Assembly (NCBI GenBank): GCA_041476345.1
Contig: JBGOTH010000001.1
Location: forward strand, 1 to 41,214
DNA: 41,214 nucleotides
Direction: 5' to 3'
From: Candidatus Methylomirabilia bacterium
GTDB taxonomy: Bacteria; Methylomirabilota; Methylomirabilia; Rokubacteriales; CSP1-6
Part shown: piece by piece, positions 12,411 to 31,900 of the stretch
Layout of the letters: every line of letters starts with the position of its first letter
How positions within the stretch are numbered: position 1 is the first letter of the stretch
Position numbers and translations under genes: made by a program
Notes under the pieces: generated by a model
Told to the model about the DNA's origin: nothing
What the model saw: the letters and a program-made list of their open reading frames with translations, nothing else
Databases searched by the model: none

Positions 12411-12426
12411 TGGCATTAACGATGCA
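12411..12426 (+). promoter_or_regulatory. sigma-54 promoter P8 (DLH / Cys-rich / FAAL / MFS operon)
   Basis: Reads TGGCATTAACGATGCA, 15 of 16 nt identical to P5, with GG-N10-GC exact. The SD AAGGGGG and the ATG at 12454 follow. Confidence 0.65.
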
Positions 12427-12453: not shown

Positions 12454-12665
12454 ATGGACGCACTCGTCGGCATCGCCAGATCCGGGTACATCGAGGGACG
12501 GCAACGTCGGGAGCGTGCGCTGGATTTCGCAGGTGTCGCCTTCGGCGTGGGATTGGGCACGGCGCTATGGCTCATCCTCGCGGCGGTCGCTCGCCTCATC
12601 GGATGACACCGGTGGCGTTCGAGGTCGCTCGTGCGGAAAGACGGTCATCGACATCCTCGCTGTGA
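12454..12665 (+). pseudogene. collapsed remnant of a PRTase + esterase gene pair
   Basis: The start context is homologous to the PRTase start. 12609-12635 matches PRTase 8083-8109 in 23 of 27 nt (PVAFE[VI]ARA). 12636-12653 matches 8341-8358 in 15 of 18 nt (GKTVI). 12654-12665 matches the esterase end (SSL-stop). About 2 kb has been reduced to about 210 nt, spread over different frames. A 50-codon ORF (12454-12606) with a TM-like tail is open here but may be fortuitous. Confidence 0.65.
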
Positions 12666-12672
12666 GACGACG

Positions 12673-13347
12673 ATGACCCCTCTCCCGTACGCCGCCGACG
12701 TCCCGGAAGTCGAGATCCCTGCGGACGATGTCTCCCTTCACGGAAACCTCGCGACCCGGCCGGGCGATCGCGGCATCGTCCTGTTCGCGCACGGGAGCGG
12801 CAGCAGCCGCTTGAGCGGTCGCAATCGTTACGTCGCGCGCGCGCTCGAGAACGCGGGGTTCTCGACCCTGCTCTTCGATCTCCTGACGAGGGACGAGGAG
12901 CGCGTGGACGAGATGACGCGCGCGTTGCGGTTCGACATCGAGATGCTCGCGCGCCGCCTCGTCGCCGTCACGGACTGGATCTCGGCGCGGCCGGACACGC
13001 GACACATGTCCGTCGGCTATTTCGGAGCCAGCACGGGCGCGGCCGCCGCGCTGATCGCCGCCGCCGAACGCCCGGGGGTCGTGGCCGCCGTCGTGTCGCG
13101 CGGAGGACGTCCCGATCTTGCCGCGCGTGCGCTTCGGAACGTGAAGGCGCCGACGCTGCTCATCGTCGGGAGTCTCGACGTGCCGGTCATCGCGATGAAC
13201 CGGAGCGCGCTCGACGCGCTCACCACCGAGAAAAAACTGGAGATCGTGGCGGGTGCCAGCCATCTCTTCGAGGAGCCTGGAACACTGCAGATCGTCGCCC
13301 GTCTCGCGAGCGACTGGTTCCACCGACACCTGGGCGTTCCACGATGA
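12673..13347 (+). CDS. dienelactone hydrolase-family alpha/beta hydrolase
   Basis: Contains GIVLFAHGSGSSRLS.RN, the nucleophile elbow GYFGASTGAAAA, and VVSRGGRPDLA...LLIVGSLD...GASHLFEEPG. The start is taken at ATG 12673. Confidence 0.85.
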   Translation: MTPLPYAADVPEVEIPADDVSLHGNLATRPGDRGIVLFAHGSGSSRLSGRNRYVARALENAGFSTLLFDLLTRDEERVDEMTRALRFDIEMLARRLVAVTDWISARPDTRHMSVGYFGASTGAAAALIAAAERPGVVAAVVSRGGRPDLAARALRNVKAPTLLIVGSLDVPVIAMNRSALDALTTEKKLEIVAGASHLFEEPGTLQIVARLASDWFHRHLGVPR

Positions 13348-13625
13348 GCTACACCTGCGGCCATCCCGAGCGGGCGCACGTGGGCGGTGGACGCTGCCGT
13401 GTTCCCGATTGTCCGTGCGAGCGGGTCGAGCCGGGCGACACCATCGCGCGGGAGTTTGCCGTCACCAGTGCCCACACTCCGGCGCATGTCGAGCGCGCGG
13501 TGATCCCCATGCTGAAGAACTCCACCTATGACCTCATGGAAACCGCCGCCGTCCTCTCGAAGGGTCGGCACGACCTCAAGGCGCACTTCGCCGGCGAAGG
13601 CGACGTGAAGATCGCCGCTTCCTAG
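13344..13625 (+). CDS. 93-aa chimeric ORF: Cys/His-rich N-terminal module fused to a Kbl C-terminal fragment plus an unknown tail
   Basis: ATGA overlap with the DLH stop. The third codon position is strongly G/C. Nt 13344-13445 are roughly 80% identical to the small ORF at 18105-18206. 13470-13503 matches the kbl 3' end 21626-21659 in 30 of 34 nt (AHTPAH[VL]ERAV). Confidence 0.6.
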   Translation: MSYTCGHPERAHVGGGRCRVPDCPCERVEPGDTIAREFAVTSAHTPAHVERAVIPMLKNSTYDLMETAAVLSKGRHDLKAHFAGEGDVKIAAS

Positions 13626-16494: not shown

Positions 16495-17811
16495 GTGGAC
16501 GATCGGCGCCGAGCACGCGTCGGCTGGTATTTCTATGACTTCGCCAACTCCGCCTTCTCCACCACGGTCATCACGGTGTTCCTCGGACCCCACCTGACTG
16601 CCGTGACGCGGGCGGCGGCCGATGCGGAAGGATTCGTCCATCCGCTGGGTCTCTCGCTCCACGCCGGATCGTTCTTCCCGTACGTCGTCTCGCTCTCCGT
16701 CGCCCTCCAGGCACTCGTGCTCCCCTCGCTCGGAGCGATGGCCGACCATTCGCGTCGCAAGAAGCAGATGCTCGGAGTCTTCGCGTACCTCGGCGCCTGC
16801 ACGACCATGGCCCTCTACTTCGTGCGCGCGCCGGACTACGTGCTCGGTGGAGTCCTGTGCGTCATCGCCAACCTGAGTTTCGGGGCGTCAGTGGTCTTCT
16901 ACAACGCGCTCCTCGCGGACGTCGCGGCGCCGGATGAGCGTGATGCGGTCTCTTCGCGAGGCTGGGCGCTCGGCTACCTCGGGGGCGGATTGCTGCTTGC
17001 CATGAATTTCGGCCTCGTGTCCCGCGCGCCGGCGCTCGGGCTTACTGGCGACCAGGCGACGCGTATCAGCCTCGCCTCCGCCGGCCTCTGGTGGGCGCTG
17101 TTCACGCTCGTCCCGATGCTGACCTTGCGGAGCACCGAGCCGGCCACGCCGTTGCCGCCTCACGCGCGCTCTCTCACCGCCGGCTTTACACAGCTCGCGC
17201 TGACCGTGCGCTCCTTGCGGAAGCAGCCGCGCACCCTGCTCTTCCTCGTCGCCTACCTCCTCTACAACGACGGGATCCAGACGGTCGTGACGCTCTCGTC
17301 TCAGTTCGGCCACGAGGAGCTTGGACTGTCGATGGCGACCCTCGCCGGCGTGATCCTCATGGTGCAGTTCGTCGCGCTGCTGGGGTCGCTGGCATTCGAG
17401 CAGGTCGCACGGGTATCGGGCGCCAAGGGCGCGATCATCATTGCGCTCCTCGGGTGGACGGGCGCGCTCGTGTACGTGTACGCGCTGCTGAGGACGCCCG
17501 GCGAGTTCGTGGGGCTGGCCGTCGTCATCGCGCTGGTGCTCGGCGGCAGCCAGGCCCTCAGCCGATCGCTCTACTCGCTGATGATCCCGCACGGCTACGA
17601 GGCCCGATATTTCAGTCTCTACGAGGTGAGCGATCGGGGGACGAGCTGGCTCGGACCGCTCGTCTTCGGCCTGTCGCTTCAATTCTCCGGTAGCTACCGC
17701 GTGGCCCTTCTCTCGCTCGTGGTCTTCTTCGCCGCCGGCCTACTCCTCCTGGCGCGGGTCGACGTCCGGCGCGCCATCGCCGAGGCCACAAACCCTGCCA
17801 ACGTGCCGTGA
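16495..17811 (+). CDS. MFS transporter, UMF1/Atg22-like family
   Basis: The N-terminus WYFYDFANSAFSTTVITVFLGPHL is typical of UMF1. About 12 hydrophobic helices. It starts 4 nt after the FAAL-LPLAT stop. Confidence 0.8.
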   Translation: MDDRRRARVGWYFYDFANSAFSTTVITVFLGPHLTAVTRAAADAEGFVHPLGLSLHAGSFFPYVVSLSVALQALVLPSLGAMADHSRRKKQMLGVFAYLGACTTMALYFVRAPDYVLGGVLCVIANLSFGASVVFYNALLADVAAPDERDAVSSRGWALGYLGGGLLLAMNFGLVSRAPALGLTGDQATRISLASAGLWWALFTLVPMLTLRSTEPATPLPPHARSLTAGFTQLALTVRSLRKQPRTLLFLVAYLLYNDGIQTVVTLSSQFGHEELGLSMATLAGVILMVQFVALLGSLAFEQVARVSGAKGAIIIALLGWTGALVYVYALLRTPGEFVGLAVVIALVLGGSQALSRSLYSLMIPHGYEARYFSLYEVSDRGTSWLGPLVFGLSLQFSGSYRVALLSLVVFFAAGLLLLARVDVRRAIAEATNPANVP

Positions 17812-17867
17812 TGCTGCGCACCATTTCCGCGGCGGCGGTCGGCCAGCGCGGCCCGGGATGGTGCGGC

Positions 17868-17907
17868 GACGCCTCACCCGGGGCAACCGTGCCCCGGGTG
17901 AGGCGTC
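17868..17907. promoter_or_regulatory. perfect 40-nt palindrome: full-symmetry version of the regulon dyad and/or intrinsic terminator stem
   Basis: Reads GACGCCTCACCCGGGG-CAACCGTG-CCCCGGGTGAGGCGTC, with 16-bp perfect arms and an 8-nt centre. It lies 57 nt after the MFS stop and 58 bp upstream of the P11 GG. No T-tract follows. Confidence 0.55.
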
Positions 17908-17948
17908 AGCTCTTCGGGCCAAGCCTGTGTTCACGCGTACTTCTGGAT

Positions 17949-17964
17949 CGGTCTCGCTCTTGCT
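17949..17964 (+). promoter_or_regulatory. possible sigma-54 promoter P11 (CBS-fragment/Cys-rich/baeRF1/tdh/kbl/ATPase operon)
   Basis: Reads CGGTCTCGCTCTTGCT with GG-N10-GC exact and a perfect -12 TTGCT, but the -24 has only the GG. The leader to the ATG at 17995 is about 20 nt and carries a GGGAG SD. Confidence 0.35.
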
Positions 17965-17994
17965 CAGGATCTGGCTCGCGCGCGGGAGTCAGCG

Positions 17995-18105
17995 ATGAAC
18001 GTTGAGGACATCATGACGGCGGACGTGATCACCGTAGGGCCCGAGGAATCCGTCGACAACCGTCTGATCGCCGGTGTCGGTCTCGCCCACACGTACGGCG
18101 CCTGA
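17995..18105 (+). CDS. 36-codon ORF = N-terminal fragment of a CBS domain
   Basis: MNVEDIMTADVITVGPEESVDN is a canonical CBS-domain start, but the ORF stops after 36 codons. Its TGA overlaps the next ATG (TGATG). It is likely a gene remnant kept as a coupling leader. Confidence 0.45.
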   Translation: MNVEDIMTADVITVGPEESVDNRLIAGVGLAHTYGA

Positions 18106-18257
18106 TGAACTGCATTTGCGGCCATCCGGAGCGCGCCCATGCAGGCAGCGGGCGCTGTCGCGTTCCCGATTGTCCCTGCGAGCGGTTTGAGCCGGGCGAC
18201 ACCATCAAAGACATCGATCCACGGCGCGATCGCAACACCCGCGCTGCGCCGCCTTGA
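18105..18257 (+). CDS. 50-aa Cys/His-rich small protein (MNCICGHPERAHAGSGRCRVPDCPCERFEPGDTI...)
   Basis: Below the ORF-track size cutoff; found by hand. It is a paralog of the N-terminus of 13344-13625. It sits 13 nt upstream of the baeRF1 gene. The conserved C-x-C-G-H-x4-H-x5-C-x4-C-x-C pattern suggests metal binding. Confidence 0.55.
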   Translation: MNCICGHPERAHAGSGRCRVPDCPCERFEPGDTIKDIDPRRDRNTRAAPP

Positions 18258-18270
18258 AGAGAGGATACGG

Positions 18271-19440
18271 ATGAGCGACACAGGGGCCGGCACGGCCGCA
18301 TCGACGACGTTCGACATCGCCGCCAAGCTCCAGCAACTCGCGCGGCTGGCACCGGGGCGAGCGCCGGTGATCAGCGTCTATCTCGATACGCGCTGGACCG
18401 ACGAGCATCAACGCGAGCGCGTGCGTGTCTTCCTGAAGAACGAGACGCGCAAGGCCGCCGCCATGGCCGCCGGTCGACTCGAGGACGAGCTCGCGTGGAT
18501 CGCCGCGCAGGGCGAGCGGCTCGTTCGCCAGGAGTTCCATCCCGACGCGGCCGGCGTGGCGATGTTCGTCGGAGGGTCGGGAGATATGCGCGAGATCCTA
18601 TCCTTCGCCGTCCCGTTCACCGACACATTCACGATGGCCGATATCCCGCGGTTGCGGCCGCTGGTGGCCGCGCTCGGCGAGGCGCCGCGGGCGGCCGTGC
18701 TGTTCGTCGACGGTGAGAGCGCACGTGTCATCGCGTTGACCGAGCAAGGCGCCGCGGATGAGATCGCGTTGGAGACGACCGACGTGATCGGTCAGCATCG
18801 CCGCGGCGGCTGGCTGCTGCTCCTGCAGTCGCGCTACCAGCGCCACATCCACGAACTCCGCAAGCGTCACTTCGACGCCGTGGCCGATGCGCTTGCCGCC
18901 GCCGTCGACCACTACGGTCTTCGGGCCATCGTGCTCGCCGGTGAGGCGCGGAACCTCGCCGTCTTCCGGACACAAGTCCCGCCGCGGCTGGCGGGACGGA
19001 TCGTCGGCAACGTGGCGGGCGCGCGCTACGAGCCCTCGAGCGTGCTCGCAGAGCGCGCGCTTGCGCTGATCCGGCACCGGAACGCCGGCGAAGAGGCAGC
19101 GGCTCTCGACTCCGTCCTGGTCGACGCGGAAGGAGGCGGACGCGCGTCCGCCGGCGTCGATGCCACGGTCGACGCCGTCAACCGCGGCACGGTCGATCGT
19201 CTCTATCTGCTGCAGACCTACGAGGAGGATGGGCGAGTGTGCTCCCGTTGCCACGCGCTCCAGCGTGCCGCGACGGCCGTCTGCCAATGGTGCAGCGCCG
19301 TGACGAATCCGATGGAGCTCGGTGAAGCGATGGTCCGGTGCGTCCTTGCCGCCGACGGCGACGTCGCGAGCGTGGACGGGCACGAGGGGCTCGCGCGCGT
19401 AGGAGGCGTGGCGGCGCTCCTCCGCTACCCGCCTCGCTGA
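18271..19440 (+). CDS. bacterial eRF1-like protein (baeRF1 / Vms1-like peptidyl-tRNA hydrolase superfamily) with C-terminal zinc ribbon
   Basis: 389 aa from ATG 18271 (SD GAGAGGA). It has a central IGQHRRGGW....SRYQR block like the hkqGGwSq.RyqR motif of bacterial aeRF1 homologs. CSRC...CQWC forms a zinc ribbon near the C-terminus. Confidence 0.6.
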   Translation: MSDTGAGTAASTTFDIAAKLQQLARLAPGRAPVISVYLDTRWTDEHQRERVRVFLKNETRKAAAMAAGRLEDELAWIAAQGERLVRQEFHPDAAGVAMFVGGSGDMREILSFAVPFTDTFTMADIPRLRPLVAALGEAPRAAVLFVDGESARVIALTEQGAADEIALETTDVIGQHRRGGWLLLLQSRYQRHIHELRKRHFDAVADALAAAVDHYGLRAIVLAGEARNLAVFRTQVPPRLAGRIVGNVAGARYEPSSVLAERALALIRHRNAGEEAAALDSVLVDAEGGGRASAGVDATVDAVNRGTVDRLYLLQTYEEDGRVCSRCHALQRAATAVCQWCSAVTNPMELGEAMVRCVLAADGDVASVDGHEGLARVGGVAALLRYPPR

Positions 19441-19457
19441 CGGGAATCTGATCCGCG

Positions 19458-20510
19458 ATGGCGCGCAGACCCGTAGCCCTGGTGACGGGCGCCGGCGGCG
19501 AGATGGGACATGCGCTCGTGCGCTGCCTCGCCCGGACGGGCGATGTCGACGTCCTCGCCCTCGACGTTCGCGCGCTCGATCCGGAGCTCGCCCGCCATTG
19601 CGTCGCCGTGCGAGTCGGCGACATCCTCGATCGGCGTCTGCTCGACCGGCTCACGAGCGAGTTCGAGATCGCCACGATCTTCCATCTCGCCGCGCTGCTG
19701 TCGACCCGCGCCGAGTTCGTGCCCGAAACCGCGCACGAGGTAAACGTGGATGGAACGCTGAACCTGCTGCGGCTCGCCGTCGAGGAGGCGCGCGCGCTGG
19801 GGCGTCCGGTGACGTTCCTCTTCCCCAGCTCGATCGCCGTCTACGGCCTGCCTGACGTGCCGACCAAGCGTGCGGTGGGCCGAGTGGGCGAGCACGAGTG
19901 GACGACGCCCGTCACCATGTACGGCTGCAACAAGCTCTACTGCGAGCACCTGGGCCGCTACTTCGGTCGTCACTACCGCCAGCTCGCGCCCCAGGCCGGG
20001 CCGAGCGGCGTCGACTTCCGCGCGATCCGCTTCCCGGGACTCATTTCGGCCTTCACCATGCCGAGCGGCGGCACCAGCGACTACGCGCCGGAGATGATCC
20101 ACGCCGCGGCCCAGGGCCGGCCTTACACCTGCTTCGTGCGGGCCGACACCCGGATTCCGTTCATGGCGATGCCGGACGCGATCGACGCGCTCCTGACCCT
20201 GCTGCGGGCACCGGCGGCATCGCTGACGAGCGCCGTGTACAACGTGACGGGATTCTCTGCGAGCGCGGGTGAGCTGGCCGATCTCGTGCGCGAGGCGTTT
20301 CCCGGAGCGCGAATCACGTTCGCGCCCGATCCCCGCCGTCAGGCCATCGTCGATTCCTGGCCCCAAGATGTGGACGACGCGCGTGCGCGCCGCGACTGGG
20401 GCTTTCGGGCCGCGCACGACCTCCAGCGCACGTTCGACGAGTACCTTCTCCCGAACGTCAGGCGCCGATATGCCGCGGCGGGCGTCGAGAGGGATTCAAA
20501 GGAGGCATGA
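19458..20510 (+). CDS. tdh: L-threonine 3-dehydrogenase (GalE-like extended SDR type)
   Basis: Contains the TGAGGEMG Rossmann motif, catalytic YGCNK, the DSWP motif, and [11 protein letters not shown]. It overlaps kbl as ATGA. Confidence 0.8.
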
Positions 20511-21700
20511 CGATGTACGGCGAGATCGTCAAGCAGCGACTCGCGGCCGAGCTCGACGAGATGGAGGCGACGGGACTGCTCAAGAGCGAGCGGGTCCTCC
20601 AGGGACCGCAGGGTCCCGAGGTCACGGTCGGCGGCCGGACGGTCCTCAATTTCTGCGCCAACAACTATCTCGGCCTCGCCGACGACCCGGCACTCGTCCA
20701 CGCCGCCCAGGATGGGCTCGCCCGCTGGGGCTTCGGGCTCGCCAGCGTGCGGTTCATCTGCGGCACTCAGACCATTCACAAGGAGCTCGAGGAGGCCATC
20801 GCCGGCTTCCTCGGCACCGACGACGTCATCCTCTACACGTCCTGCTTCGACGCCAACGGCGGCCTCTTCGAGACGCTGCTCGGGGAGGGCGACGTCGTGA
20901 TCTCCGACGCCCTCAACCACGCCTCGATCGTCGACGGCATCCGCCTCTGCCGCGCGGAACGCCACCGCTACGCGCACGGTGACATGGCCGACCTGGAGCG
21001 CATCCTCGCGGCGACGCGCGGCGCGCGCACGCGGCTCATCGCCACCGACGGCGTGTTCTCGATGGACGGCGACGTCGCACCCCTGGCGGAGATCTGCGAT
21101 CTCGCCGACCGCTACGACGCCCTCGTGATGGTGGACGACAGCCATGCCACCGGCTTCTTCGGTCCCACCGGGCGTGGGACGCCGGAGCATTGCGGCGTCC
21201 AGGCGCGCGTGGACATCATCACGTCGACTCTGGGCAAGGCGCTCGGCGGAGCCAGCGGCGGCTTCACGGCCGCGCGGCGCGAGATCGTTGCCATCCTGCG
21301 GCAGCGCTCGCGCCCCTACCTCTTCTCGAACACGCTGCCGCCCGCGCTCGTCTGCGCGTCCCTGGCCTGCCTCGAGCTGCTCGCGCGGTCGTCGATGCGG
21401 CGTGACGTGCTCGCCGCAAACACGCGGTGGTTTCGTGCAGCGATGACGGCCGCCGGCTTCGCCATTCGCCCCGGCGTCCATCCGATCGTCCCGATCGTGC
21501 TGGGCGACGCCCGCCTCGCCCAGCAGATGGCCGGCGATCTCCTGGAAGAGGGCATCTACGTCGTCGGCTTCTCCTATCCCGTCGTCCCCAGGGACGCGGC
21601 GCGCATCCGCGTGCAGCTCAGCGCCGCCCACACGCCGGCCCATCTCGAGCGCGCGGTCACGGCGTTCGTGAAAATCGGCCGCGTCCGTGGTGTCGTTTGA
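20507..21700 (+). CDS. kbl: glycine C-acetyltransferase (2-amino-3-ketobutyrate CoA ligase)
   Basis: Contains [29 protein letters not shown] and the PLP-Lys block [14 protein letters not shown]. The C-terminus reads [13 protein letters not shown]. Confidence 0.9.
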
Positions 21701-21705
21701 CCGCG

Positions 21706-24700
21706 ATGCCGGCTGCGCCCTCGCCCGCTCCGCCCCTCACGTCGCTCGTCGCCGGCGATCCGCAGTCGCTCGGGCCTGCCGTCGATTGCCTGGAAGCCCT
21801 CGCGCGCGCGCTCGGTCGGCCGGGGCTCTCCCGCGCGCGGCCGGTCGCCCTCGCGCCTGACGTCGTCCTCGTGCGCGACGAGGGGGCCGGCACGCTTGCG
21901 CTGACGTGCGTCGTCCTCGACCACGCGCCGCCCCTCGGGCCCGACGGCTCGCGGGCGAGGCTCGTCGTCGTCCTCGAGGCGCCCCTCGCAGCGAGCGCGC
22001 GCGGGGTGCGCGCTGCGGCGCGGCTGGCCGCCTGCCTCGCCAACATCGACGTGCGCGCACGGCTCATCTCCGCTCGTAATCGCCAGGACCTGGTCGAGGC
22101 GCTCGGTCCCGCGCAGGCGCGTGCCGGCGAAGCCGCGCTCGACGACGCGACGCTGTTCGCGCTGCTCGGGAGCACTGCCCGCGGGATCGAAAGCGCCGAG
22201 GCAACGCGCCGCCTCGCCGCGTGCGGAACCAATGAACTGCGCCGAGGGGCGCGCCGGTCGCTCGCCGCGCGTCTCGTCGCCCAGCTCACCAGCCTCTTCG
22301 CCGCCCTGCTCTGGATCGGTGGCGCGCTCGCCTTCCTCGTGGGCTCGCCGGAGGCCGGCTGGGCCATCTTCGGCGTCATCGTGATCAACGGCGTCTTCAG
22401 CTTCGTGCAGGAGTACCGGGCCGAGCGTGCGGTGGAGGCGCTGCAGGCGCTCCTCCCGCGCCGCATCGCGGTCCTGCGTGACGGCGCGGTCGTCACGGTC
22501 GACCTCACCGATGTCGTCCCGGGTGACGTGATCCAGCTGGCGGAGGGCGACCACGTGCCGGCCGACGGCCGCGTCCTCGACGCCGCGGGCCTGCGCGTCG
22601 ATCAGAGCGCGCTCACCGGCGAGCCGCAGCCGGTGTTCAAGCTGCCGCTGCGCGGTGACGGTCGCGAGAACGTCCCGCGGCTCGAGCGTACCGAGCTCGT
22701 CTTCGCGGGCACGAGCGTGATGGCCGGCGCCGCCACCGTGCTCGTGACCGCGACCGGCATGGAGACCGAGATCGGCGGGATCGCCAGGCTCACCGAGGCG
22801 GTCGAGGAAACCGCGAGCCCCCTCCAGCGCGAGCTGGCGCGCACGACCCGGGTCGTCACGGCCCTGGCGGTCGGGATCGGCGTGGGCGCCTTCGTGTTGA
22901 GCGTCGCGGCGAGACGGCTGGCGCTCGGCGAGGCACTGCTCTTCGCGCTCGGCGTCATCGTGGCGAACGTCCCCGAAGGTCTCCTCCCCACCCTCAGCCT
23001 GACCCTTGCGCTCGCCGTCCAGCGACTCGCGCGCGCCGGCACGCTGATGAAGCGGCTGAGCGCGGTCGAGACGCTCGGCGAGACGACCGTGATCTGCACG
23101 GACAAGACGGGCACGCTGACGCTCGGCACGATGGTGGTCCGTCATCTGTGGATCGACGGCCGGGTCATCGCCGGCGATGACTCCGCCGGTCGAGAGCTTC
23201 TCGAGGCCGCCACGCTCGCGTCGCTCGCCGGCCGCGACCGCGGGGATCCCACCGAGGTCGCGTTGGTGACCGCGGCCACCCAGGCCGGCGCGGATCCGGA
23301 CGCCCTCCGGAACGCGGCGCCGATCGTCACCCCCTACCCGTTCGACTCGTTCCGCAAGCGCATGACGCTCGTGCGCGACGGGCGCGGTGAACGCACGGCC
23401 TGGGTGAAGGGCGCTCCCGCCGAGACGCTCGCACTCTGCGCGTCGATACGGCAGGACGGACGAACGGTGTCGCTCACCGAGGCGCAGCGCCAGGCGATCC
23501 TCGCCGAGCACGACCGGCTCGCCGCGGAAGGACTCCGCATCCTCGCCGTCGCCACGCGCCCCGTGGGGAGCGAGCTGCACGATGCGCCGGCCGGCGTCAT
23601 CGAGCACGAGCTGACCTTCCTCGGGCTGATCGCGCTGTGGGATCCGCCGCGCCCCGAGGTCGCCGGCGCCGTCGCGGCATTCCGCCGCGCCGGTATCCGC
23701 GTCGTGATCGTCACCGGAGATTACGGGCTCACGGCGCGGTCGATCGCCCTCCAGATCGGGCTTGCGGCCACGAAAGTCGTCACCGGCGCGGAAGTGGAGC
23801 GCCTCCCGGCGAGCGCGCTCCGCGAGCTCGCGCTCGAGCCGGGCGTTCTGTTCGCGCGGACCTCGCCGGCGCACAAGCTCGCGATCGTCGAGGCGTTGCG
23901 AGCGGGCGGCGAGGTCGTGGCCGTGACCGGTGACGGCGTCAACGACGCGCCCGCGCTCAAGGCGGCCGACATCGGCGTCGCCATGGGGCAGCGCGGCAGC
24001 GACGTCGCCCGAGAGGCGTCGGAGATGGTGCTGGTGCGCGATGACTTCACCGCCATCGTCGCCGCCATCCGGCTCGGACGCGCGGCATGGGCCAACATCG
24101 GCAAGTTCGTCACCTACATCTTCGTCTCGAATCTCGCCGAGCTCGTGCCCTTCCTGGCGTTCGTCCTCTTCCACATTCCGCTGCCCTTGAACGTCCTGCA
24201 GATCCTCGCCATCGACCTCGGAACGAACCTCCTGCCCGGTCTCGCGCTCGGCGCGGAGGCACCGGAGCCGGGAGTGATGGAGCGGCCGCCACGATCGCGG
24301 ACCGAGCGGCTTCTCGGACGCGATCGCCTGCTGCGCGCGTATTGCTTCCTCGGCGTCGCGGAGGCGGCCTTGGCGCTGGCGGCGTTCTTCTGGGTGTACT
24401 GGCTCGCCGGCTGGCGTCCGGGGCTGCCGCTCGCGGCGGAGGGTGAGATCTACCGTCGCGCGACCACGATGACGTTTGCCGCCATCGTGGCCGGGCAGGT
24501 CGGCAACGTGTTCGCCTGCCGCACCGATCGCGTGTCCGTTTTCCACGTGGGCCTGGCCGCCAACCGCATGGTCATCTCGGCGGTGCTCGCAGAGATCGGC
24601 CTGCTCGTGGTGTTGATCCTCGTGCCGCCCTTCCCCGCCGTCCTCGGGTTGGCGCCGCTCGGCGTGCACGAGTGGAGCGTGCTCCTGCTCTTCCCATTCG

Positions 24701-24786
24701 TGATCCTGGGTCTCGAGGAGGGCCGCAAGTGGCTGGTGCGCCGCCCGTGGCGCGCGGCGGCCGACCGGCGAGTCCCCGAGCGCTGA
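21706..24786 (+). CDS. cation-transporting P-type ATPase (type II-like) with about 160-aa N-terminal extension
   Basis: Contains CTDKTGTLT, M4 PEGLLPT, TGDYGLTA and VTGDGVNDAPALK. The start is taken at ATG 21706, just after the kbl stop; the track ORF start 21427 overlaps kbl. Confidence 0.9.
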   Translation: MPAAPSPAPPLTSLVAGDPQSLGPAVDCLEALARALGRPGLSRARPVALAPDVVLVRDEGAGTLALTCVVLDHAPPLGPDGSRARLVVVLEAPLAASARGVRAAARLAACLANIDVRARLISARNRQDLVEALGPAQARAGEAALDDATLFALLGSTARGIESAEATRRLAACGTNELRRGARRSLAARLVAQLTSLFAALLWIGGALAFLVGSPEAGWAIFGVIVINGVFSFVQEYRAERAVEALQALLPRRIAVLRDGAVVTVDLTDVVPGDVIQLAEGDHVPADGRVLDAAGLRVDQSALTGEPQPVFKLPLRGDGRENVPRLERTELVFAGTSVMAGAATVLVTATGMETEIGGIARLTEAVEETASPLQRELARTTRVVTALAVGIGVGAFVLSVAARRLALGEALLFALGVIVANVPEGLLPTLSLTLALAVQRLARAGTLMKRLSAVETLGETTVICTDKTGTLTLGTMVVRHLWIDGRVIAGDDSAGRELLEAATLASLAGRDRGDPTEVALVTAATQAGADPDALRNAAPIVTPYPFDSFRKRMTLVRDGRGERTAWVKGAPAETLALCASIRQDGRTVSLTEAQRQAILAEHDRLAAEGLRILAVATRPVGSELHDAPAGVIEHELTFLGLIALWDPPRPEVAGAVAAFRRAGIRVVIVTGDYGLTARSIALQIGLAATKVVTGAEVERLPASALRELALEPGVLFARTSPAHKLAIVEALRAGGEVVAVTGDGVNDAPALKAADIGVAMGQRGSDVAREASEMVLVRDDFTAIVAAIRLGRAAWANIGKFVTYIFVSNLAELVPFLAFVLFHIPLPLNVLQILAIDLGTNLLPGLALGAEAPEPGVMERPPRSRTERLLGRDRLLRAYCFLGVAEAALALAAFFWVYWLAGWRPGLPLAAEGEIYRRATTMTFAAIVAGQVGNVFACRTDRVSVFHVGLAANRMVISAVLAEIGLLVVLILVPPFPAVLGLAPLGVHEWSVLLLFPFVILGLEEGRKWLVRRPWRAAADRRVPER

Positions 24787-24809: not shown

Positions 24810-25355
24810 TCAGGGCGCCCGCCCTGTGCGACGCAGGAGCCTCTTGAGCCAGCCCTTGGATCTTGATGTCGTCGCTGGCTCGAACAATGCGACCGCCTCA
24901 ACCGGATCGGGCTTCGCACGACGACCGGTCACCCGGTCAACGTGAATGCGGTAGTACGTCGGAATCAGCGGCTCTACAGCACCAAGATGGGTCTCTCCGA
25001 CGCAGGCTGGTTCCCACCACAGGGCCCGCCGCTGGAGCAGCGCGTACGCCAATTCACGTTCCACGCTCCATTCAGGCGTATCCGGCAACTCCTCATAGCG
25101 ACCTTGGACGACCACACTCGTCCAATGATGGTCATTGATTATTTCGTCTGCTTCGACACAGACCAGCGGGTTGGTACGCATCCATTCGATCTTCTGACCG
25201 AGCGCGGCGACGCTGTAGAGATGCCTGTCGTCGTAAGCGAAATTGACCGGCACGACGTACGGCTGATTGTCACGTGAACAGCCGAGTCTGGCGAATCTCA
25301 GGCGTGTCAGCGTCTCAACGCATTCTTTATTCGTCAGTTCGAGAATCAACGTCAC
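24810..25355 (-). CDS. pyridoxamine 5'-phosphate oxidase-like (flavin-binding split-barrel) family protein
   Basis: 181 aa. CVETLTRLRFARLGCSRDNQPYVVPVNFAYDDRHLY...VCVEAD fits the Pyridox_ox_2-type pattern. GTG start with SD AAGAAGGGA. Its G+C is markedly lower than that of its neighbours. Confidence 0.65.
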   Translation of the reverse strand: MTLILELTNKECVETLTRLRFARLGCSRDNQPYVVPVNFAYDDRHLYSVAALGQKIEWMRTNPLVCVEADEIINDHHWTSVVVQGRYEELPDTPEWSVERELAYALLQRRALWWEPACVGETHLGAVEPLIPTYYRIHVDRVTGRRAKPDPVEAVALFEPATTSRSKGWLKRLLRRTGRAP

Positions 25356-25893: not shown

Positions 25894-25909
25894 TGCAACA
25901 CGAGTGCCG
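25894..25909 (-). promoter_or_regulatory. sigma-54 promoter P9 (CBS-PNPOx operon)
   Basis: The minus strand reads CGGCACTCGTGTTGCA, near-consensus GGCAC-N5-TTGCA. The leader is about 53 nt. Confidence 0.7.
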
Positions 25910-27851: not shown

Positions 27852-27867
27852 TGGCACCGCCCTTGCC
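27852..27867 (+). promoter_or_regulatory. sigma-54 promoter P10 (tandem-USP / glucan synthase operon)
   Basis: Reads (C)TGGCACCGCCCTTGCC, near-consensus, with GG-N10-GC exact. The leader to the ATG at 27899 is about 21 nt and includes the SD GGAGGAGG. Confidence 0.75.
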
Positions 27868-28983: not shown

Positions 28984-31900
28984 GTGGCATCCGGTGGCAA
29001 GGGCGTTCGGCTCGCCGAACGCCTGCGCGGCCCGCAGGAAGCCCTCGAGGCCACGTATCGACGTCTCGCTGGAGGCGCCCCGGGCGCGGATCGACCTGCG
29101 GCGGAGTGGCTGCTCGACAACTACTACATCGTCGAGCGGGCCTTCCAACTGGTTCGGGAGGAGTTCCCGCCCGCGTTCGAGCACCGTCTCCCGCCCAGTG
29201 CTCCCGGTCCGCTGCTCGGTTTCCCCGTGAGCTATGCACTGGCTCAGGAAATCGTCACCGCCGGCGCCCAGCTCGTCGAGGTAGACACGATCGTACGGGT
29301 CGTCGAGGAATTCCAAACCGTCCGCACTCTATCGGTGGCGGAGGTCTGGGCACTGCCCGTGCTCCTCCGCATCGTGCTGCTCGAGTCCCTGGCATCCGCC
29401 GTCTCCATCGCACTCCCCGAGGAGAGAGCCGCGGGGGAAACGGCGGGGGACCGGATCGTCGCGGCCTGCATCCGCAGTCTGCACACCCTCGAGACCACCG
29501 ATTGGAGAGTGTTCTTCGAAAGGGTCAGCGAGATCGAGCGGATCCTCCGCGAGGACCCGGCCGGCGCGTACGCCCGGATGGACTTCGAGACGCGCGATCG
29601 CTACCGCAAGGTCGTGGAAGAACTGGCCGCGCGCAGCGACTGGTCCGAGGAAGCCGTCGCGCGCGAGGCTGTCGAGCGGTCGCGGAAAGGCATGGACGGC
29701 CGTCGCGGCCATGTCGGCTACCACCTCATCGACGGCGGCTCCGAGGCGCTCGGTCACGCGGTCGGCTACCGTCCCCGTTGGGGAACGCGATGGCGTCGCT
29801 TCCTTCTGCGTCACCCGACGCCGTGGTACCTCGGCGCGATCGCCGTGGTTGCCGTGGTTCATCTGGTGGCGCTGGGCATGGCGCTACTCGCTACGGGAAC
29901 CGCGTCTGTCGTTATCGCTGCAGGGCTGGTGCTGGCCCTCGTCCCCGCCGCGACCATCGCCGTAAGTGTCGTGAACCGTCTCGGGACGCGTGTCGTCCCG
30001 GTGCGCGTTCTGCCCAAGCTGGACTTCCGCGAGGGCCTCCCCATCGATTGCCGAACCATGATCGTCGTCCACGCCATCCTCTCGCCGGAAGACGATATCG
30101 CGCCACTGCTGTCGCGGCTCGAGGTTCACGGGCTCGCCAGCGCCGACGCCAATCTCCATCTCGCCCTGCTCGTCACGCTCGCGGACGCGCCCGAGGAATC
30201 GATGCCGGGTGACGTCGATCTGCTACGACGGCTCGAAGCAGGCGTGCGCGCGCTGAATGCAAAGTACGGGCACGGCGCCAGCGGCCCGTTTCACGTGTTG
30301 CATCGAAGGCGACTGTGGAACCCCGGTGAGGGGTGCTGGATGGGCTGGGAGCGCAAGCGCGGCCAGCTCGCCGAGTTCAACCGCCTGCTCGCCGGCGACC
30401 ATCGGACCAGCTTTGCGACGCACGTCGGCGATGCGAGCTTCCTTTCGACGACCCGGTTCGTGATCACCCTGGACACGGACACCGAGCTCCCCCGTGGCGC
30501 GGCCCGCCGCCTCGTCGCCACCCTCGCGCATCCCCTCAACCGGGCCGAGATCGAGACCGGGACGGGTCGCGTGACCGCCGGCTACACGGTCCTGCAGCCT
30601 CGGATGGAAGTGACGCCCTCGGGCGCCGCCTCGTCGCTCTCGCGCCTCTTCGCGGGGGACCCCGGCTTCGATCTCTACGCCCGCGCGTCATCGGACGTGT
30701 ACCAGGACCTCTTCGGCGAGGGCGTCTACGTCGGCAAGGGGATCTACGACCCGGTGGCGTTCGAGGCGAGCCTGCGCGGGCGGGTGCCGGAGAACGCAAT
30801 CCTCAGTCACGACCTCTTCGAGGGAATTCACGGAAGAACGGCGCTGGTGACGGACGTCGTCCTCTTCGAGAACTACCCCGCCGACTACCGTAGTTACTGG
30901 CGACGTCTCCACCGCTGGGTCCGGGGAGACTGGCAATTGCTCCCGTGGCTCGGCCCCCGGGTACCCCTTGCGGCAGGCGGTCGCGCACCGAACCGACTGT
31001 CGCTGATCTCGCGTTGGAAGATCATCGACAACCTTCGCCGCACCTTGCTTCCGCCGACATTGCTCGCCTTCCTGCTCCTGGCATGGGTTGGGTTCCCCAG
31101 CTCGCCCGCCGTGTGGACGATGATCGCCGTCCTCGTGCTCGCGGCCCCGCTGCTCACGGAGGCGATGGGAGGTCTCCTCGCGGCGAATCGGGTGGCGGCC
31201 TTGCCTCCGGCCGTCCGGGGCGTGGTGCTGCGACTGCGGCCTGCGTCGGTGCTCTGGATCCTCCACATCGCCCTGCTCCCCCATCGCGCCGTCGTCCTGG
31301 CTGACGCCATTCTCCGCACGCTCGTCCGTCTGCGCCGGGGGCGCCGCCTTCTGGAATGGACGTCAGCGGCGCGCGTGGCACGCCTGCTGGTTGACACGGA
31401 GTCACGCCGACTGTTCTGGCGCGAAATGGTCACGGCTCCCATCATCGCAATCGGCACGCTGGTGCTGCTCGCGCTCTGTCGGCCGACCGCGCTTCCGGCC
31501 GCGCTTCCACTCGCGGCGCTCTGGCTCCTCGCTCCCGAAATCGCGGCGTTCGTCAGCCGGCCACGACGTCGGCGTGTGGCGGCGCTGTCGGAGGGCGATG
31601 CTCGACGCCTCCGTCTGCTGGCGCGCCGCACGTGGCTCTTCTTCGACAGGTTCGTGGGACCGGACGACCACTGGCTGCCACCTGATCACTTCCACGAGGA
31701 GCCGCGCGGTGAAGTCGCGCGGCGAACCTCGCCGACCAACATCGGACTCCTGCAACTCGCCACGCTGTCCGCGCACGATCTCGGTCACGCGGGTTTGCTG
31801 TCCGTGATCCTGCGCCTGCGGAACACGTTCGAGACGCTCGCACGCATGGAGCGCCACCGCGGCCACTTCTACAACTGGTACGACACACGCGATCTCTCTC

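What the first reader, a model, noticed from the sequence alone, without database searches (positions are those of the whole stretch)
17995..19440. Translationally coupled trio: CBS fragment, Cys-rich peptide and eRF1-like protein heading a Thr-catabolism / P-type ATPase operon
A 36-codon ORF with a canonical CBS-domain start (MNVEDIMTADVITVGPEESV) ends in TGATG, overlapping the start of the 50-aa Cys-rich ORF. That ORF ends 13 nt before the eRF1-like gene. The eRF1-like protein carries an IGQHRRGGW...SRYQR block and a CSRC/CQWC zinc ribbon. Then tdh, kbl (ATGA overlap) and the ATPase follow with gaps of 18 nt or less. Bacterial aeRF1 homologs are poorly characterised and are proposed to act in ribosome rescue or quality control. 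A dedicated small metal-binding partner and co-transcription with a dormancy-type regulon have not, to my knowledge, been described experimentally. The CBS fragment may be a remnant kept only because its translation delivers ribosomes to the downstream starts.
Basis: partly seen in the sequence, partly recalled or inferred. Interest (0 to 1): 0.65.

Follow-up and report, generated by a model that had tools for sequence, protein, structure and literature searches.

The report
Balon-type stress operon with coupled micro-protein
This is a stress operon from an uncultured soil or sediment bacterium that encodes a known kind of ribosome-silencing protein (Balon family), preceded by the leftover stub of a deleted sensor gene that probably still feeds ribosomes to a small, previously undescribed metal-binding protein.

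Summary

- **The 389-aa protein** is a baeRF_family10 protein. That is the Pfam family of the mycobacterial hibernation factor Balon (Msmeg1130), which is also its best structural match (TM 0.76-0.78). This family, and its stress and CBS-gene neighbourhoods, were described in 2024.
- **The 36-codon "CBS fragment"** is an in-frame internal deletion (191 codons lost) of a 227-aa CBS-pair+BON gene. That gene is intact in relatives and ends in the same TGATG overlap.
  - At least four other lineages carry 5-39-codon stubs of the same gene. Each keeps its Shine-Dalgarno sequence and ATG, and a stop that overlaps the start of the small ORF.
  - This supports the idea that the stub survives as a ribosome loader.
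- **The 50-aa ORF** is a real protein module under purifying selection, with the motif CxCGHx4H…Cx4CxC. It matches no Pfam, NCBIfam or PDB entry.
  - It is not a dedicated Balon partner. Most copies lie elsewhere, many behind an exact sigma-54-type promoter motif.
  - Some copies are fused to membrane HtrA proteases.
  - Close relatives have deleted the Balon gene but kept the small ORF.

tdh, kbl and the P-type ATPase follow as claimed.

The parts
17865..17911 (+). Very stable GC-rich hairpin between the upstream MFS (Atg22-like) gene and the operon. It is probably a terminator or insulator of the upstream unit.
   Evidence: Folding gives -45.8 kcal/mol with z = -7.5 against shuffles. The core GGGGC-N6-GCCCC is conserved in 5 loci, with a G-C to A-T double change in L017. 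There is no clear T-tract, so the function is inferred.
17948..17964 (+). Conserved promoter-like block TCGGTCTCGCTCTTGCT, about 30 nt upstream of the stub's ATG. It is a possible weak sigma-54-type -24/-12 element (GG-N10-GC).
   Evidence: It is invariant in the 5 aligned loci. It lies at the same distance from the ATG as the exact TGGCA-N6-TTGCW motifs in front of stand-alone small ORFs. However, it has 3 mismatches to TGGCA, and no sigma-70-like site was found. This assignment is inferred.
17995..18105 (+). 36-codon stub of a CBS-pair+BON gene, produced by an in-frame deletion of 191 codons. It keeps the ancestral Shine-Dalgarno sequence (GGGAG), the ATG, and a stop that overlaps the next ATG (TGATG).
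   Evidence: Residues 1-20 align with the N-terminus and residues 21-36 with the C-terminus of the intact 227-aa protein in L007, L016 and L017. That protein scores CBS 101.7 bits and BON 40.5 bits. GC3 is 0.81.
18105..18257 (+). 50-aa small protein made of a 33-residue Cys/His module (C3, C5, H7, H12, C18, C23, C25) and an unconserved tail. It has no Shine-Dalgarno sequence of its own.
   Evidence: Fifteen homologues were found, with E-values down to 1e-18. Ninety-nine 50%-identity clusters were found among 1.84 billion representatives. Entropy by codon position is 0.44/0.39/1.13 over 42 distinct cores. There is no Pfam, NCBIfam or PDB match. No SD motif occurs within 16 nt upstream.
18271..19440 (+). 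Balon-family (baeRF_family10) aeRF1-like protein of 389 aa. It has an RGGW loop in place of GGQ and a C4 zinc ribbon in the C-terminal domain.
   Evidence: Pfam scores 72.7 bits. phmmer against Msmeg1130 Balon gives E 2.4e-10. The AF2 model has pLDDT 87.4. The top PDB fold hits are 8v9l_z, 8v9j_z and 8v9k_z, with TM 0.71-0.78. The loop and the four Cys are invariant or nearly invariant in 56 homologues.
19458..20510 (+). SDR-type L-threonine 3-dehydrogenase (tdh).
   Evidence: phmmer against solved L-threonine 3-dehydrogenases gives E 1.6e-58 to 1e-45. The Pfam Epimerase model matches.
20507..21700 (+). Glycine C-acetyltransferase (kbl), with an ATGA overlap with tdh.
   Evidence: TIGR01822 scores 621 bits against a cut-off of 493.
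21706..24786 (+). P-type cation ATPase (1026 aa), the last gene of the unit. The next gene is convergent.
   Evidence: The Cation_ATPase_N, E1-E2_ATPase, Hydrolase and Cation_ATPase_C models all match. The start was fixed by the in-frame ATG 5 nt after the kbl stop. The convergent PNPOx-like gene lies at 24810-25355.
13344..13625 (+). Second copy of the Cys/His module in the window (93 aa, with the first Cys replaced by Tyr). Its start overlaps the stop of a dienelactone-hydrolase-family gene (ATGA), and it has a coding-like C-terminal extension.
   Evidence: It shares 81.6% nucleotide identity over 103 nt with the L011 small ORF, the near-identical homologue of the window's 18105 ORF. The sequence and ORF are shown. 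The tail has GC3 0.85 and GC2 0.44. The upstream gene matches DLH.

Best explanation
The region is one stress-type transcription unit (about 17950-24786) of an uncultured Methylomirabilota (Rokubacteria) bacterium.

**The stub.** The original first gene encoded a 227-aa CBS-pair+BON protein, probably a nucleotide or energy sensor. In this lineage an in-frame deletion removed 191 codons. It occurred between two short GT(G/C) (Val-codon) matches. What remains is a 36-codon stub that keeps the ancestral ribosome-binding site and ATG. Its stop codon still overlaps the ATG of the next cistron (UGAUG).

**The small ORF.** This next cistron has no Shine-Dalgarno sequence of its own. It is therefore most likely translated by ribosomes that terminate on the stub and re-initiate (inferred). 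It encodes a 33-residue Cys5His2 module, probably zinc-binding, followed by a disordered tail.
- The module is a general component of Methylomirabilota stress islands.
- Elsewhere it has its own sigma-54-type promoter motif.
- In some proteins it forms the cytoplasmic N-terminal domain of membrane-anchored HtrA proteases.
- Its most likely role is a metal- or thiol-dependent sensor or adaptor, not a Balon-specific subunit (inferred).

**The Balon-family protein.** The third cistron encodes a Balon-family factor. By homology, this factor occupies the A site of ribosomes during stress and silences them, with its zinc-ribbon hairpin at the EF-Tu-contacting site.

**The downstream genes.** tdh and kbl (threonine to glycine plus acetyl-CoA) and a P-type cation ATPase are co-expressed downstream.

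The locus is evolutionarily unstable. Relatives have lost the CBS-BON gene, the Balon gene or the whole downstream block, but always keep the small ORF.
For: **Shown**
- The stub equals the N-terminal 20 residues plus the C-terminal 16 residues of the intact CBS+BON protein. That protein has the same TGATG overlap in L007, L016 and L017.
- Further stubs of 39, 6, 6 and 5 codons occur in L032, L011, L014/15/19/20 and L018/22/23. Each has an SD sequence and ATG, and a stop overlapping the small-ORF ATG. In all of these except L011, the small ORF itself lacks an SD. In L011, codons 4-5 of the shrunken stub form an SD-like GAGGA 6 nt upstream of the ATG.
- The small ORF is under protein-level selection, and its family comprises 99 clusters.
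- HtrA fusions contain Trypsin_2 plus two PDZ domains after a transmembrane segment.
- An exact TGGCA-N6-TTGCW motif lies 39-61 nt upstream of the small ORF in 17 loci.
- Neighbouring genes include M50-CBS, USP, CBS, DUF2267, LonC-like, PNPOx, an HPF-like gene and a P-type ATPase.
- Balon membership rests on the Pfam family, which also holds Msmeg1130, on sequence similarity and on fold.
- In L028, L044 and L016 the small-ORF stop overlaps the baeRF ATG.
- Deletion variants are L011 and L016.
- Independent contigs confirm the window sequence.
- tdh and kbl are identified.

Against: - There is no expression, Ribo-seq or metal-binding data. No RNA runs hold the locus.
- The AF2 model of the small protein has low confidence (pLDDT 59), so the fold and metal site are unverified.
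- The ATGA type of overlap is automatic for any ORF starting ATG-AAC. Only the presence of SD-bearing mini-ORFs is therefore informative, not the overlap itself.
- Some stubs may be nested descendants of one deletion rather than independent events.
- The protein is far below the NCBIfam equivalog cut-offs for the two mycobacterial Balon families (64 vs 480 and 62 vs 320 bits).
- Its loop HRRGGWxLLLQSRYQRH is nearly invariant, unlike the poorly conserved loops of most baeRF families (PMC6514570). It might therefore do more than passively block the A site.
- The promoter assignment for this particular locus is weak: there are 3 mismatches in the -24 box.
Confidence: 0.62

Rival explanations
1. 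The Cys-rich peptide is a dedicated metal-binding subunit or chaperone of the eRF1-like protein. The two act as a complex on the ribosome.
For: In one sub-lineage (window, L007, L028, L044 and ancestrally L016) the two genes are adjacent. They are separated by 13 nt or joined by an ATGA overlap. Both proteins carry conserved Cys clusters.
Against: - Only 4 of about 42 distinct small-ORF copies are directly upstream of a baeRF gene. Most are followed by a convergent gene.
- The closest baeRF relatives (86, 79, 78 and 78% identity: L065-L068 and L001) have no small ORF anywhere in the fetched DNA.
- L011 and L016 deleted the baeRF gene but kept an intact small ORF.
- The module also occurs fused to HtrA proteases.
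Confidence: 0.1
2. The small ORF is not a functional protein. It is a regulatory leader peptide or a nucleotide-level element (RNA structure or mobile repeat) that controls downstream genes, for example in response to cysteine or zinc supply.
For: - It is short and Cys-rich, and it sits at the 5' end of an operon here.
- Its GC3 (0.69-0.73) is lower than that of neighbouring genes at 0.84-0.91.
- Two copies in the same window are about 80% identical at the nucleotide level. This is inferred from the L011 and L012 alignments to both copies.
Against: - Variation is concentrated at third codon positions, with entropy 1.13 against 0.44 and 0.39.
- Non-Cys residues (G6, G16, R17, R19, P21, D22, P24, E26, F28, P30) are invariant in the closest homologues.
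- Many copies have no downstream gene on the same strand.
- The module is the N-terminus of 400-530-aa HtrA proteases.
- There is no Rfam hit.
Confidence: 0.06
3. The stub is a neutral, recent pseudogene relic with no role. The small ORF is translated independently, and the in-frame state is coincidence in a locus undergoing general decay.
For: - The locus is clearly unstable. L011, which is 95% identical at the nucleotide level, has a frame-breaking 323-nt deletion in the MFS gene. It has also lost the baeRF gene and shrunk the stub further.
- L016 lost 6.5 kb.
- The stub's high GC3 (0.81) is simply inherited from the parent gene.
- Frequent loss of hibernation-factor genes is reported generally (bioRxiv 10.1101/2025.11.04.686544).
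Against: - At least two different primary junctions exist: the window's after codon 20 and L032's after codon 24. At least three further very short stubs also exist.
- All of them retain SD, ATG and a stop overlapping the small-ORF ATG. Apart from L011, the small ORFs behind these stubs have no SD.
- If the events are independent, five in-frame outcomes have a chance of about (1/3)^5. Stand-alone copies, by contrast, carry GGAGG-type SDs.
Confidence: 0.2
4. The 389-aa protein is a catalytically active peptidyl-tRNA hydrolase or ribosome-rescue factor, not a passive hibernation factor.
For: - The loop homologous to the eRF1 GGQ loop keeps H-R-R-G-G and is nearly invariant, together with Q186, S187, Y189 and H192.
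- Burroughs and Aravind singled out family 10 as having a conserved glutamine and being potentially active (PMC6514570).
Against: - The residue at the Q position of GGQ is W (50 of 56) or F (6 of 56).
- Msmeg1130, which belongs to the same Pfam family, is an experimentally shown non-hydrolytic hibernation factor and is the best fold match (PMC10901736).
Confidence: 0.15

Closest known systems
Balon-type ribosome hibernation factors (Psychrobacter Balon; mycobacterial Msmeg1130 and Rv2629; Pfam baeRF_family10)
   Same: It has the three-domain aeRF1-like fold, with TM 0.71-0.78 to the ribosome-bound Msmeg1130 and Rv2629. It falls in the same Pfam family as Msmeg1130. It has no NIKS and no GGQ. 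It sits in a stress island with CBS, USP, PNPOx and P-type ATPase genes, much as Rv2629 lies near Hrp1 in the hypoxia regulon.
   Different: It is only 22-23% identical and far below the NCBIfam equivalog cut-offs. It has a nearly invariant HRRGGW...QSRYQRH loop, where Msmeg1130 has QERAGQ. It carries an intact C4 zinc ribbon where the mycobacterial proteins have a Cys-less hairpin. Here it is co-transcribed with tdh-kbl.
CBS-domain stress proteins linked to ribosome hibernation: M. tuberculosis Hrp1 (Rv2626c) next to Rv2629, and the archaeal CBS-HPF fusions HibA/AHA
   Same: In the ancestral arrangement a CBS-pair protein is encoded immediately upstream of the hibernation factor (L007). The adjacency of CBS and Balon genes, and CBS-HPF fusions, are published (PMC10901736; PMC13324472 and PMC12934967, abstracts).
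   Different: The protein here has an added BON domain. It is translationally coupled through a small ORF. In this window it is reduced to a 36-codon non-functional stub.
Translational coupling by termination-reinitiation at overlapping stop and start codons (UGAUG/AUGA), as in many bacterial operons (textbook knowledge)
   Same: The overlapping stop and start, together with a downstream cistron lacking an SD, fit this mechanism.
   Different: The upstream cistron is no longer a gene. It is a deletion stub that appears to be retained, in several lineages and sizes, only as the ribosome entry point.
Small Cys/His zinc modules at the cytoplasmic N-terminus of membrane proteins, such as ZAS-type anti-sigma factors. 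This comparison is from memory and is a lead only.
   Same: In the HtrA fusions the architecture is a short N-terminal Cys/His module, then a linker, then a single transmembrane helix.
   Different: The motif CxCGHx4Hx3-4GxCx4CxCxxFxP is not the HxxxCxxC ZAS motif. No Pfam zinc-finger model matches it. The only recurrent weak hit is FAM221 (10 of 73 members, best E 0.042).

Membership tests
Balon / baeRF_family10 ribosome hibernation factors | Match to the family's sequence model | tested here: met
   PF18854 scores 72.7 bits against a cut-off of 27.1. Msmeg1130 itself scores 126 bits on the same model. phmmer against 8v9j_z gives E 2.4e-10.
Balon / baeRF_family10 ribosome hibernation factors | Three-domain aeRF1-like fold resembling ribosome-bound Balon | tested here: met
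   The AF2 model has pLDDT 87.4 and pTM 0.81. The top Foldseek hits are 8v9l_z (TM 0.76/0.78), 8v9j_z, 8v9k_z and 8rd8_B.
Balon / baeRF_family10 ribosome hibernation factors | Absence of the NIKS and GGQ motifs of aeRF1 | tested here: met
   The sequence has no NIKS and no GGQ. The loop reads HRRGGW, with W or F at the Q position in all 56 homologues. The retained GG and the invariant Q186 leave a residual question.
Balon / baeRF_family10 ribosome hibernation factors | Beta-hairpin insertion in the C-terminal domain that contacts EF-Tu | tested here: inconclusive
   An insertion is present at the aligned site, but as a C4 zinc ribbon (C324, C327, C338 and C341 are invariant). EF-Tu contact cannot be tested here.
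Balon / baeRF_family10 ribosome hibernation factors | HP motif, lasso loop and bL27 trap | tested here: inconclusive
   An HP dipeptide at residues 90-91 is only moderately conserved (H in 35 of 56, P in 49 of 56). Its equivalence to the Balon HP motif was not established.
Balon / baeRF_family10 ribosome hibernation factors | Binds the ribosomal A site and inhibits translation | not testable with these tools
   This needs biochemistry or cryo-EM.
NCBIfam MSMEG_1130-family / Rv2629-family RHF equivalogs | Score above the curated equivalog cut-off | tested here: not met
   It scores 64.2 against 480 bits and 62.2 against 320 bits. It is a distinct subfamily, not an equivalog.
Classical class-I release factor aeRF1 (peptidyl-tRNA hydrolase) | GGQ catalytic motif and NIKS stop-codon motif | tested here: not met
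   Both motifs are absent. Pfam eRF1_3 scores only 14.3 bits.
CBS-pair domain protein (the 36-aa ORF) | A complete CBS pair | tested here: not met
   Only profile positions 1-19 of one CBS repeat match, at 17.2 bits against a cut-off of 24. Comparison with the intact 227-aa CBS+BON protein shows that 191 codons were deleted.
Described zinc-finger or small-protein families (the 50-aa ORF) | Match to any curated model or solved structure | tested here: not met
   There is no Pfam or NCBIfam hit and no PDB hit with a profile. Only weak FAM221 hits appear, in 10 of 73 members, with E 0.04 or above.
Attenuator-type leader peptide | No selection on the peptide sequence beyond its regulatory codons, and always upstream of a regulated gene | tested here: not met
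   There is strong purifying selection on many residues. Many copies are followed by a convergent gene.
Sigma-54-dependent promoter (for the small-ORF family) | TGGCAC-N5-TTGCW with GG at -24 and GC at -12, at a fixed short distance upstream | tested here: met
   An exact TGGCA-N6-TTGCW lies 39-61 nt upstream of the ATG in 17 loci, including the HtrA fusions. For the window's own operon only GG-N10-GC plus TTGCT is kept, with 3 mismatches, which is inconclusive there. Function was not tested.
Tdh-Kbl threonine degradation pair | SDR-type L-threonine 3-dehydrogenase followed by glycine C-acetyltransferase | tested here: met
   tdh matches solved TDHs at E 1.6e-58. kbl scores 621 bits on TIGR01822 against a cut-off of 493. 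The two genes share an ATGA overlap.

The most novel reading that the evidence does not exclude
The 33-residue CxCGHx4H...Cx4CxC module defines a new family of sigma-54-controlled metal- or thiol-sensing micro-proteins. On this reading it acts as the cytoplasmic signalling or adaptor element of the Methylomirabilota dormancy response. It would link stress proteolysis (HtrA fusions; neighbouring M50-CBS site-2 protease and LonC-like genes) with ribosome hibernation (the coupled CBS-BON and Balon-like genes). Its expression would be important enough that deleted upstream genes are conserved as mini-ORFs purely to load ribosomes onto it.
Probability: 0.2. Interest if true: 0.7.

Novelty: new variant of a known kind. 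Interest (0 to 1): 0.45.

Why it matters
The main gene belongs to a recently characterised class (Balon), so the operon itself extends a known theme to Methylomirabilota. That theme is hibernation factors embedded in hypoxia- or stress-type islands next to CBS proteins. Three points go beyond the known picture.

1. **An undescribed small protein family.** A conserved small Cys/His protein family recurs in these islands. It often sits behind an exact sigma-54-type promoter motif and is sometimes fused to HtrA proteases. This makes it a tractable candidate for a new stress sensor or adaptor.
2. **A natural series of deletion stubs.** These show how a dead gene's start and stop can be kept as a translational loader for an SD-less downstream cistron.
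3. **An unusual Balon clade.** It has an invariant RGGW loop and an intact zinc ribbon. It could show how the release-factor catalytic loop and the EF-Tu-binding hairpin were repurposed.

Tried and rejected
- **Small-protein structure.** The AF2 model of the 50-aa protein from the 16-sequence alignment gave pLDDT 59. That is too poor for a fold search, so none was run.
- **Small-protein database searches.** Pfam, NCBIfam and PDB-profile searches found nothing. A relaxed Pfam scan of 73 members gave only weak FAM221 hits.
- **RNA families.** Rfam found none anywhere in the window.
- **Promoter scan.** The sigma-70 promoter and intrinsic-terminator scan of 17600-19600 was uninformative.
- **Transcription evidence.** No RNA-seq runs hold the locus, so transcription could not be checked.
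- **The 433-aa gene call from ATG 18139.** Rejected, because homologues are 385-389 aa and the N-terminal extension has no coding-type composition.
- **Assembly artefact as the cause of the stub.** Rejected.
- **RNA element or leader-peptide reading of the small ORF.** Rejected on codon-position variability.
- **ATGA overlaps as evidence of coupling.** Counting them was abandoned, because ATG-AAC creates that overlap automatically. Only mini-ORFs with their own SD were counted.
- **A mis-spaced pattern search.** The search for the stub's promoter block used N6 instead of N5, so it says nothing.
Full report
**1. Observation**

- A 36-codon ORF (17995-18105) ends in TGA. That stop shares its A with the ATG of a 50-codon Cys-rich ORF (18105-18257).
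- Thirteen nucleotides later, after an AGAGGA Shine-Dalgarno sequence, a 389-codon ORF starts at 18271 and ends at 19440.
- tdh follows after 17 nt (19458-20510).
- kbl overlaps tdh by ATGA (20507-21700).
- A P-type ATPase starts 5 nt after kbl, at ATG 21706, and ends at 24786. The next gene is convergent.

The stored gene call for the eRF1-like gene is 433 aa from ATG 18139. More than a hundred homologues are 385-389 aa and align from residue 1 of the 18271 start. The extension also shows no coding-type base composition.

Independent contigs from three sediment metagenome runs reproduce 17400-19600 with 0-2 differences. The arrangement is therefore real DNA. Named relatives are Candidatus Methylomirabilota/Rokubacteria MAGs.

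**2. The eRF1-like protein is a Balon-family factor**

- It scores 72.7 bits on Pfam baeRF_family10.
- The reconstructed sequence of the cryo-EM-characterised hibernation factor Msmeg1130 scores 126 bits on the same model.
- phmmer links the two directly, with E 2.4e-10.
- An AlphaFold2 model (pLDDT 87.4) has ribosome-bound Msmeg1130 and Rv2629 as its best PDB matches (TM 0.71-0.78). Archaeal aRF1, Psychrobacter Balon and eukaryotic eRF1 rank just behind them in the same hit list, with Rv2629 fourth after aRF1.

Balon proteins bind the A site, lack NIKS and GGQ, contact EF-Tu through a C-domain hairpin, and sit in stress operons. One such operon lies next to the CBS protein Hrp1 in mycobacteria (PMC10901736). 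The statement that such proteins are uncharacterised is therefore outdated.

This clade is nevertheless a distinct subfamily.
- It is far below the NCBIfam equivalog cut-offs.
- Its loop G-[HQ]-H-R-R-G-G-W-x-L-L-x-Q-S-R-Y-Q-R-H is almost invariant in 56 homologues. By eye it aligns with the eRF1 HGRGGQS loop, with W or F at the Q position.
- The four Cys of the C-domain zinc ribbon are invariant.

Burroughs and Aravind noted that the zinc ribbon is ancestral in aeRF1 and degenerate in many bacterial families. They also noted that family 10 might retain activity (PMC6514570). I consider hydrolase activity unlikely but not excluded.

**3. The CBS fragment is a deletion stub**

In L007, a Rokubacteria MAG syntenic with the window, the gene order is:
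1. acyl-CoA synthetase/acyltransferase;
2. a 227-aa CBS-pair+BON protein (CBS 101.7 bits, BON 40.5 bits);
3. the small ORF;
4. baeRF, then tdh and kbl.

That CBS+BON protein ends ...AYHYGA with the same TGATG overlap onto the small ORF.

The window's 36 residues are the first 20 plus the last 16 of this protein. They are joined at a Val codon present on both sides. This means 191 codons were lost in frame.

Other lineages carry further stubs of the same gene:
- 39 codons in L032, with a junction four codons later than the window's;
- 6 codons (MNVEDS) in L011, which is about 95% identical to the window at the nucleotide level;
- 5 codons (MIGAR) in L018, L022 and L023;
- 6 codons (M[AS]T[AV]RG, behind a strong GGGAGGG) in L014, L015, L019 and L020.

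Every stub keeps a Shine-Dalgarno sequence, an ATG and a stop that overlaps the small ORF's ATG. Apart from L011, the small ORF behind these stubs has no Shine-Dalgarno sequence of its own. In L011 the deletion brought the stub's GAGGA to 6 nt upstream of the small-ORF ATG.

Stand-alone copies do have GGAGG-type sites. This is the best evidence available here that the stub is retained as a ribosome loader. It remains an inference, for two reasons. The ATGA type of overlap arises automatically from ATG-AAC. Some stubs may also be nested descendants of one deletion event.

**4. The small ORF is a real, undescribed protein module, not a Balon-specific partner**

*Evidence that it is a protein*
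- Fifteen close homologues were found.
- A full HMMER scan of 1.84 billion representatives found 99 clusters.
- Across 42 distinct nucleotide versions, variability is 0.44, 0.39 and 1.13 bits at codon positions 1, 2 and 3. That is a clear protein-coding signature.
- The conserved core is M-x-C-x-C-G-H-x4-H-x3-4-G-x-C-x4-C-x-C-x2-F-x-P, with seven potential metal ligands. The tail is not conserved.
- No curated family or solved structure matches it.

*Where it occurs*
- Only the window, L007, L028 and L044 have it directly upstream of a baeRF gene. In L028, L044 and ancestrally L016, its stop overlaps the baeRF ATG.
- Most copies are followed by a convergent gene.
- Several copies form the cytoplasmic N-terminus of membrane-anchored HtrA-type proteases, followed by a linker and a transmembrane helix.
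- Recurrent neighbours are M50-CBS site-2 proteases, DUF2267/THUMP, CBS, USP, acyltransferases, LonC-like proteases, PNPOx-like proteins, P-type ATPases and HPF-like proteins.
- Of 14 baeRF loci sampled independently of the small ORF, one has it adjacent and one has it 2.7 kb away. The closest baeRF relatives (78-86% identity) lack it.
- L011 has precisely lost the 1.18-kb baeRF gene. L016 has lost baeRF through the ATPase, leaving the baeRF ATG and a 46-nt relic of codons 36-52. Both keep the small ORF intact.
- A second, 93-aa copy lies in the window at 13344-13625.

**5. Regulation**

Seventeen small-ORF loci, including the HtrA fusions, carry an exact TGGCA-N6-TTGCW 39-61 nt upstream of the ATG. 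That is the sigma-54 -24/-12 pattern. The window has nine such motifs at one mismatch or fewer, against 1.33 expected.

The stub's own upstream region contains a block that is invariant in five loci: TCGGTCTCGCTCTTGCT at 17948-17964. It has the same GG-N10-GC spacing and the same distance to the ATG, but a poor -24 box. A sigma-54-type promoter is therefore possible here but not shown.

A very stable hairpin at 17865-17911 (-45.8 kcal/mol, z = -7.5) separates the operon from the upstream MFS gene.

**6. Verdict**

| Claim | Result |
|---|---|
| The protein is eRF1-like | Right |
| The CBS fragment is a remnant kept as a ribosome loader | Right, and now supported by comparative evidence |
| The family is uncharacterised | Outdated |
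| The small peptide is a dedicated metal-binding partner | Wrong |

The locus is a new variant of a known kind: a Balon-type stress operon. Its added interest lies in three things:
- the undescribed small Cys/His protein family;
- the series of deletion stubs;
- the unusual RGGW plus zinc-ribbon Balon clade.

Noticed in passing
window 13344-13625 (+): A second member of the Cys/His module family (93 aa, MSYTCGHPERAHVGGGRCRVPDCPCERVEPGDT...). The first Cys is replaced by Tyr. Its ATG overlaps the stop of a dienelactone-hydrolase-family gene (12631-13347) by ATGA, and it has a coding-like 60-aa C-terminal extension. It lies just upstream of the acyl-CoA synthetase/acyltransferase gene.
   Followed up: partly
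window 1382, 4130, 4285, 7927, 11370, 11599, 12411, 25894, 27852 (16-mers): Sigma-54-type motifs (TGGCA-N6-TTGCW with one mismatch or fewer) are enriched: 9 found against 1.33 expected, and none of 100 shuffles reached 9. Several lie in front of stress genes. Examples are 12411-12426 before the DLH/small-ORF pair, 25894-25909 (-) before the CBS-pair gene, and 27852-27867 near the tandem-USP gene. This suggests a sigma-54 stress regulon.
   Followed up: partly
L037 712-2301; L038 240-1751; L055 2291-3802; protein P0157: The Cys/His module is fused as the N-terminal cytoplasmic domain, followed by a linker and one transmembrane helix, to HtrA/DegP-type proteases (Trypsin_2 plus two PDZ domains). 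In L055 an M50-CBS site-2 protease gene lies 35 nt upstream on the same strand.
   Followed up: partly
L011 1-1696 and L016 757-1515: Close relatives show population-level gene loss at this locus. L011 has a frame-breaking 323-nt deletion in the MFS gene, a 6-codon stub and a precise loss of the baeRF gene. L016 lost baeRF, tdh, kbl and the ATPase (about 6.5 kb), leaving the baeRF ATG and a 46-nt relic.
   Followed up: yes
window 17865-17911 (+): A near-perfect hairpin with 21 predicted base pairs (-45.8 kcal/mol, z = -7.5) lies between the MFS gene and the operon. Its core is conserved in related loci, with one compensatory change. It has no clear T-tract.
   Followed up: partly
L003 5141-5536; L061/L062 (about 120-aa ORFs downstream of the small-ORF fusion): Short HPF/RaiA-like proteins (Ribosomal_S30AE, 22 bits, just under the cut-off) are encoded next to Balon-like and USP genes. 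This matches the published baeRF-HPF association.
   Followed up: no
window 21706-22140 (+): The P-type ATPase has an N-terminal extension of about 145 aa before the Cation_ATPase_N domain. This extension has no Pfam match.
   Followed up: no
window 18139-18270 (+): The stored gene call (P0016, 433 aa) over-extends the baeRF gene by 44 codons across the small ORF in another frame. Because of this, automatic annotation hides the small ORF.
   Followed up: yes
alignment A4 (73 family members): Ten members give weak hits to Pfam FAM221 (best E 0.042), a eukaryotic family of unknown function. This may reflect a shared Cys/His motif or may be chance.
   Followed up: no
window 28984-37362 (+): A very long ORF (2792 aa) lies downstream of the tandem-USP gene. 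It was not examined.
   Followed up: no
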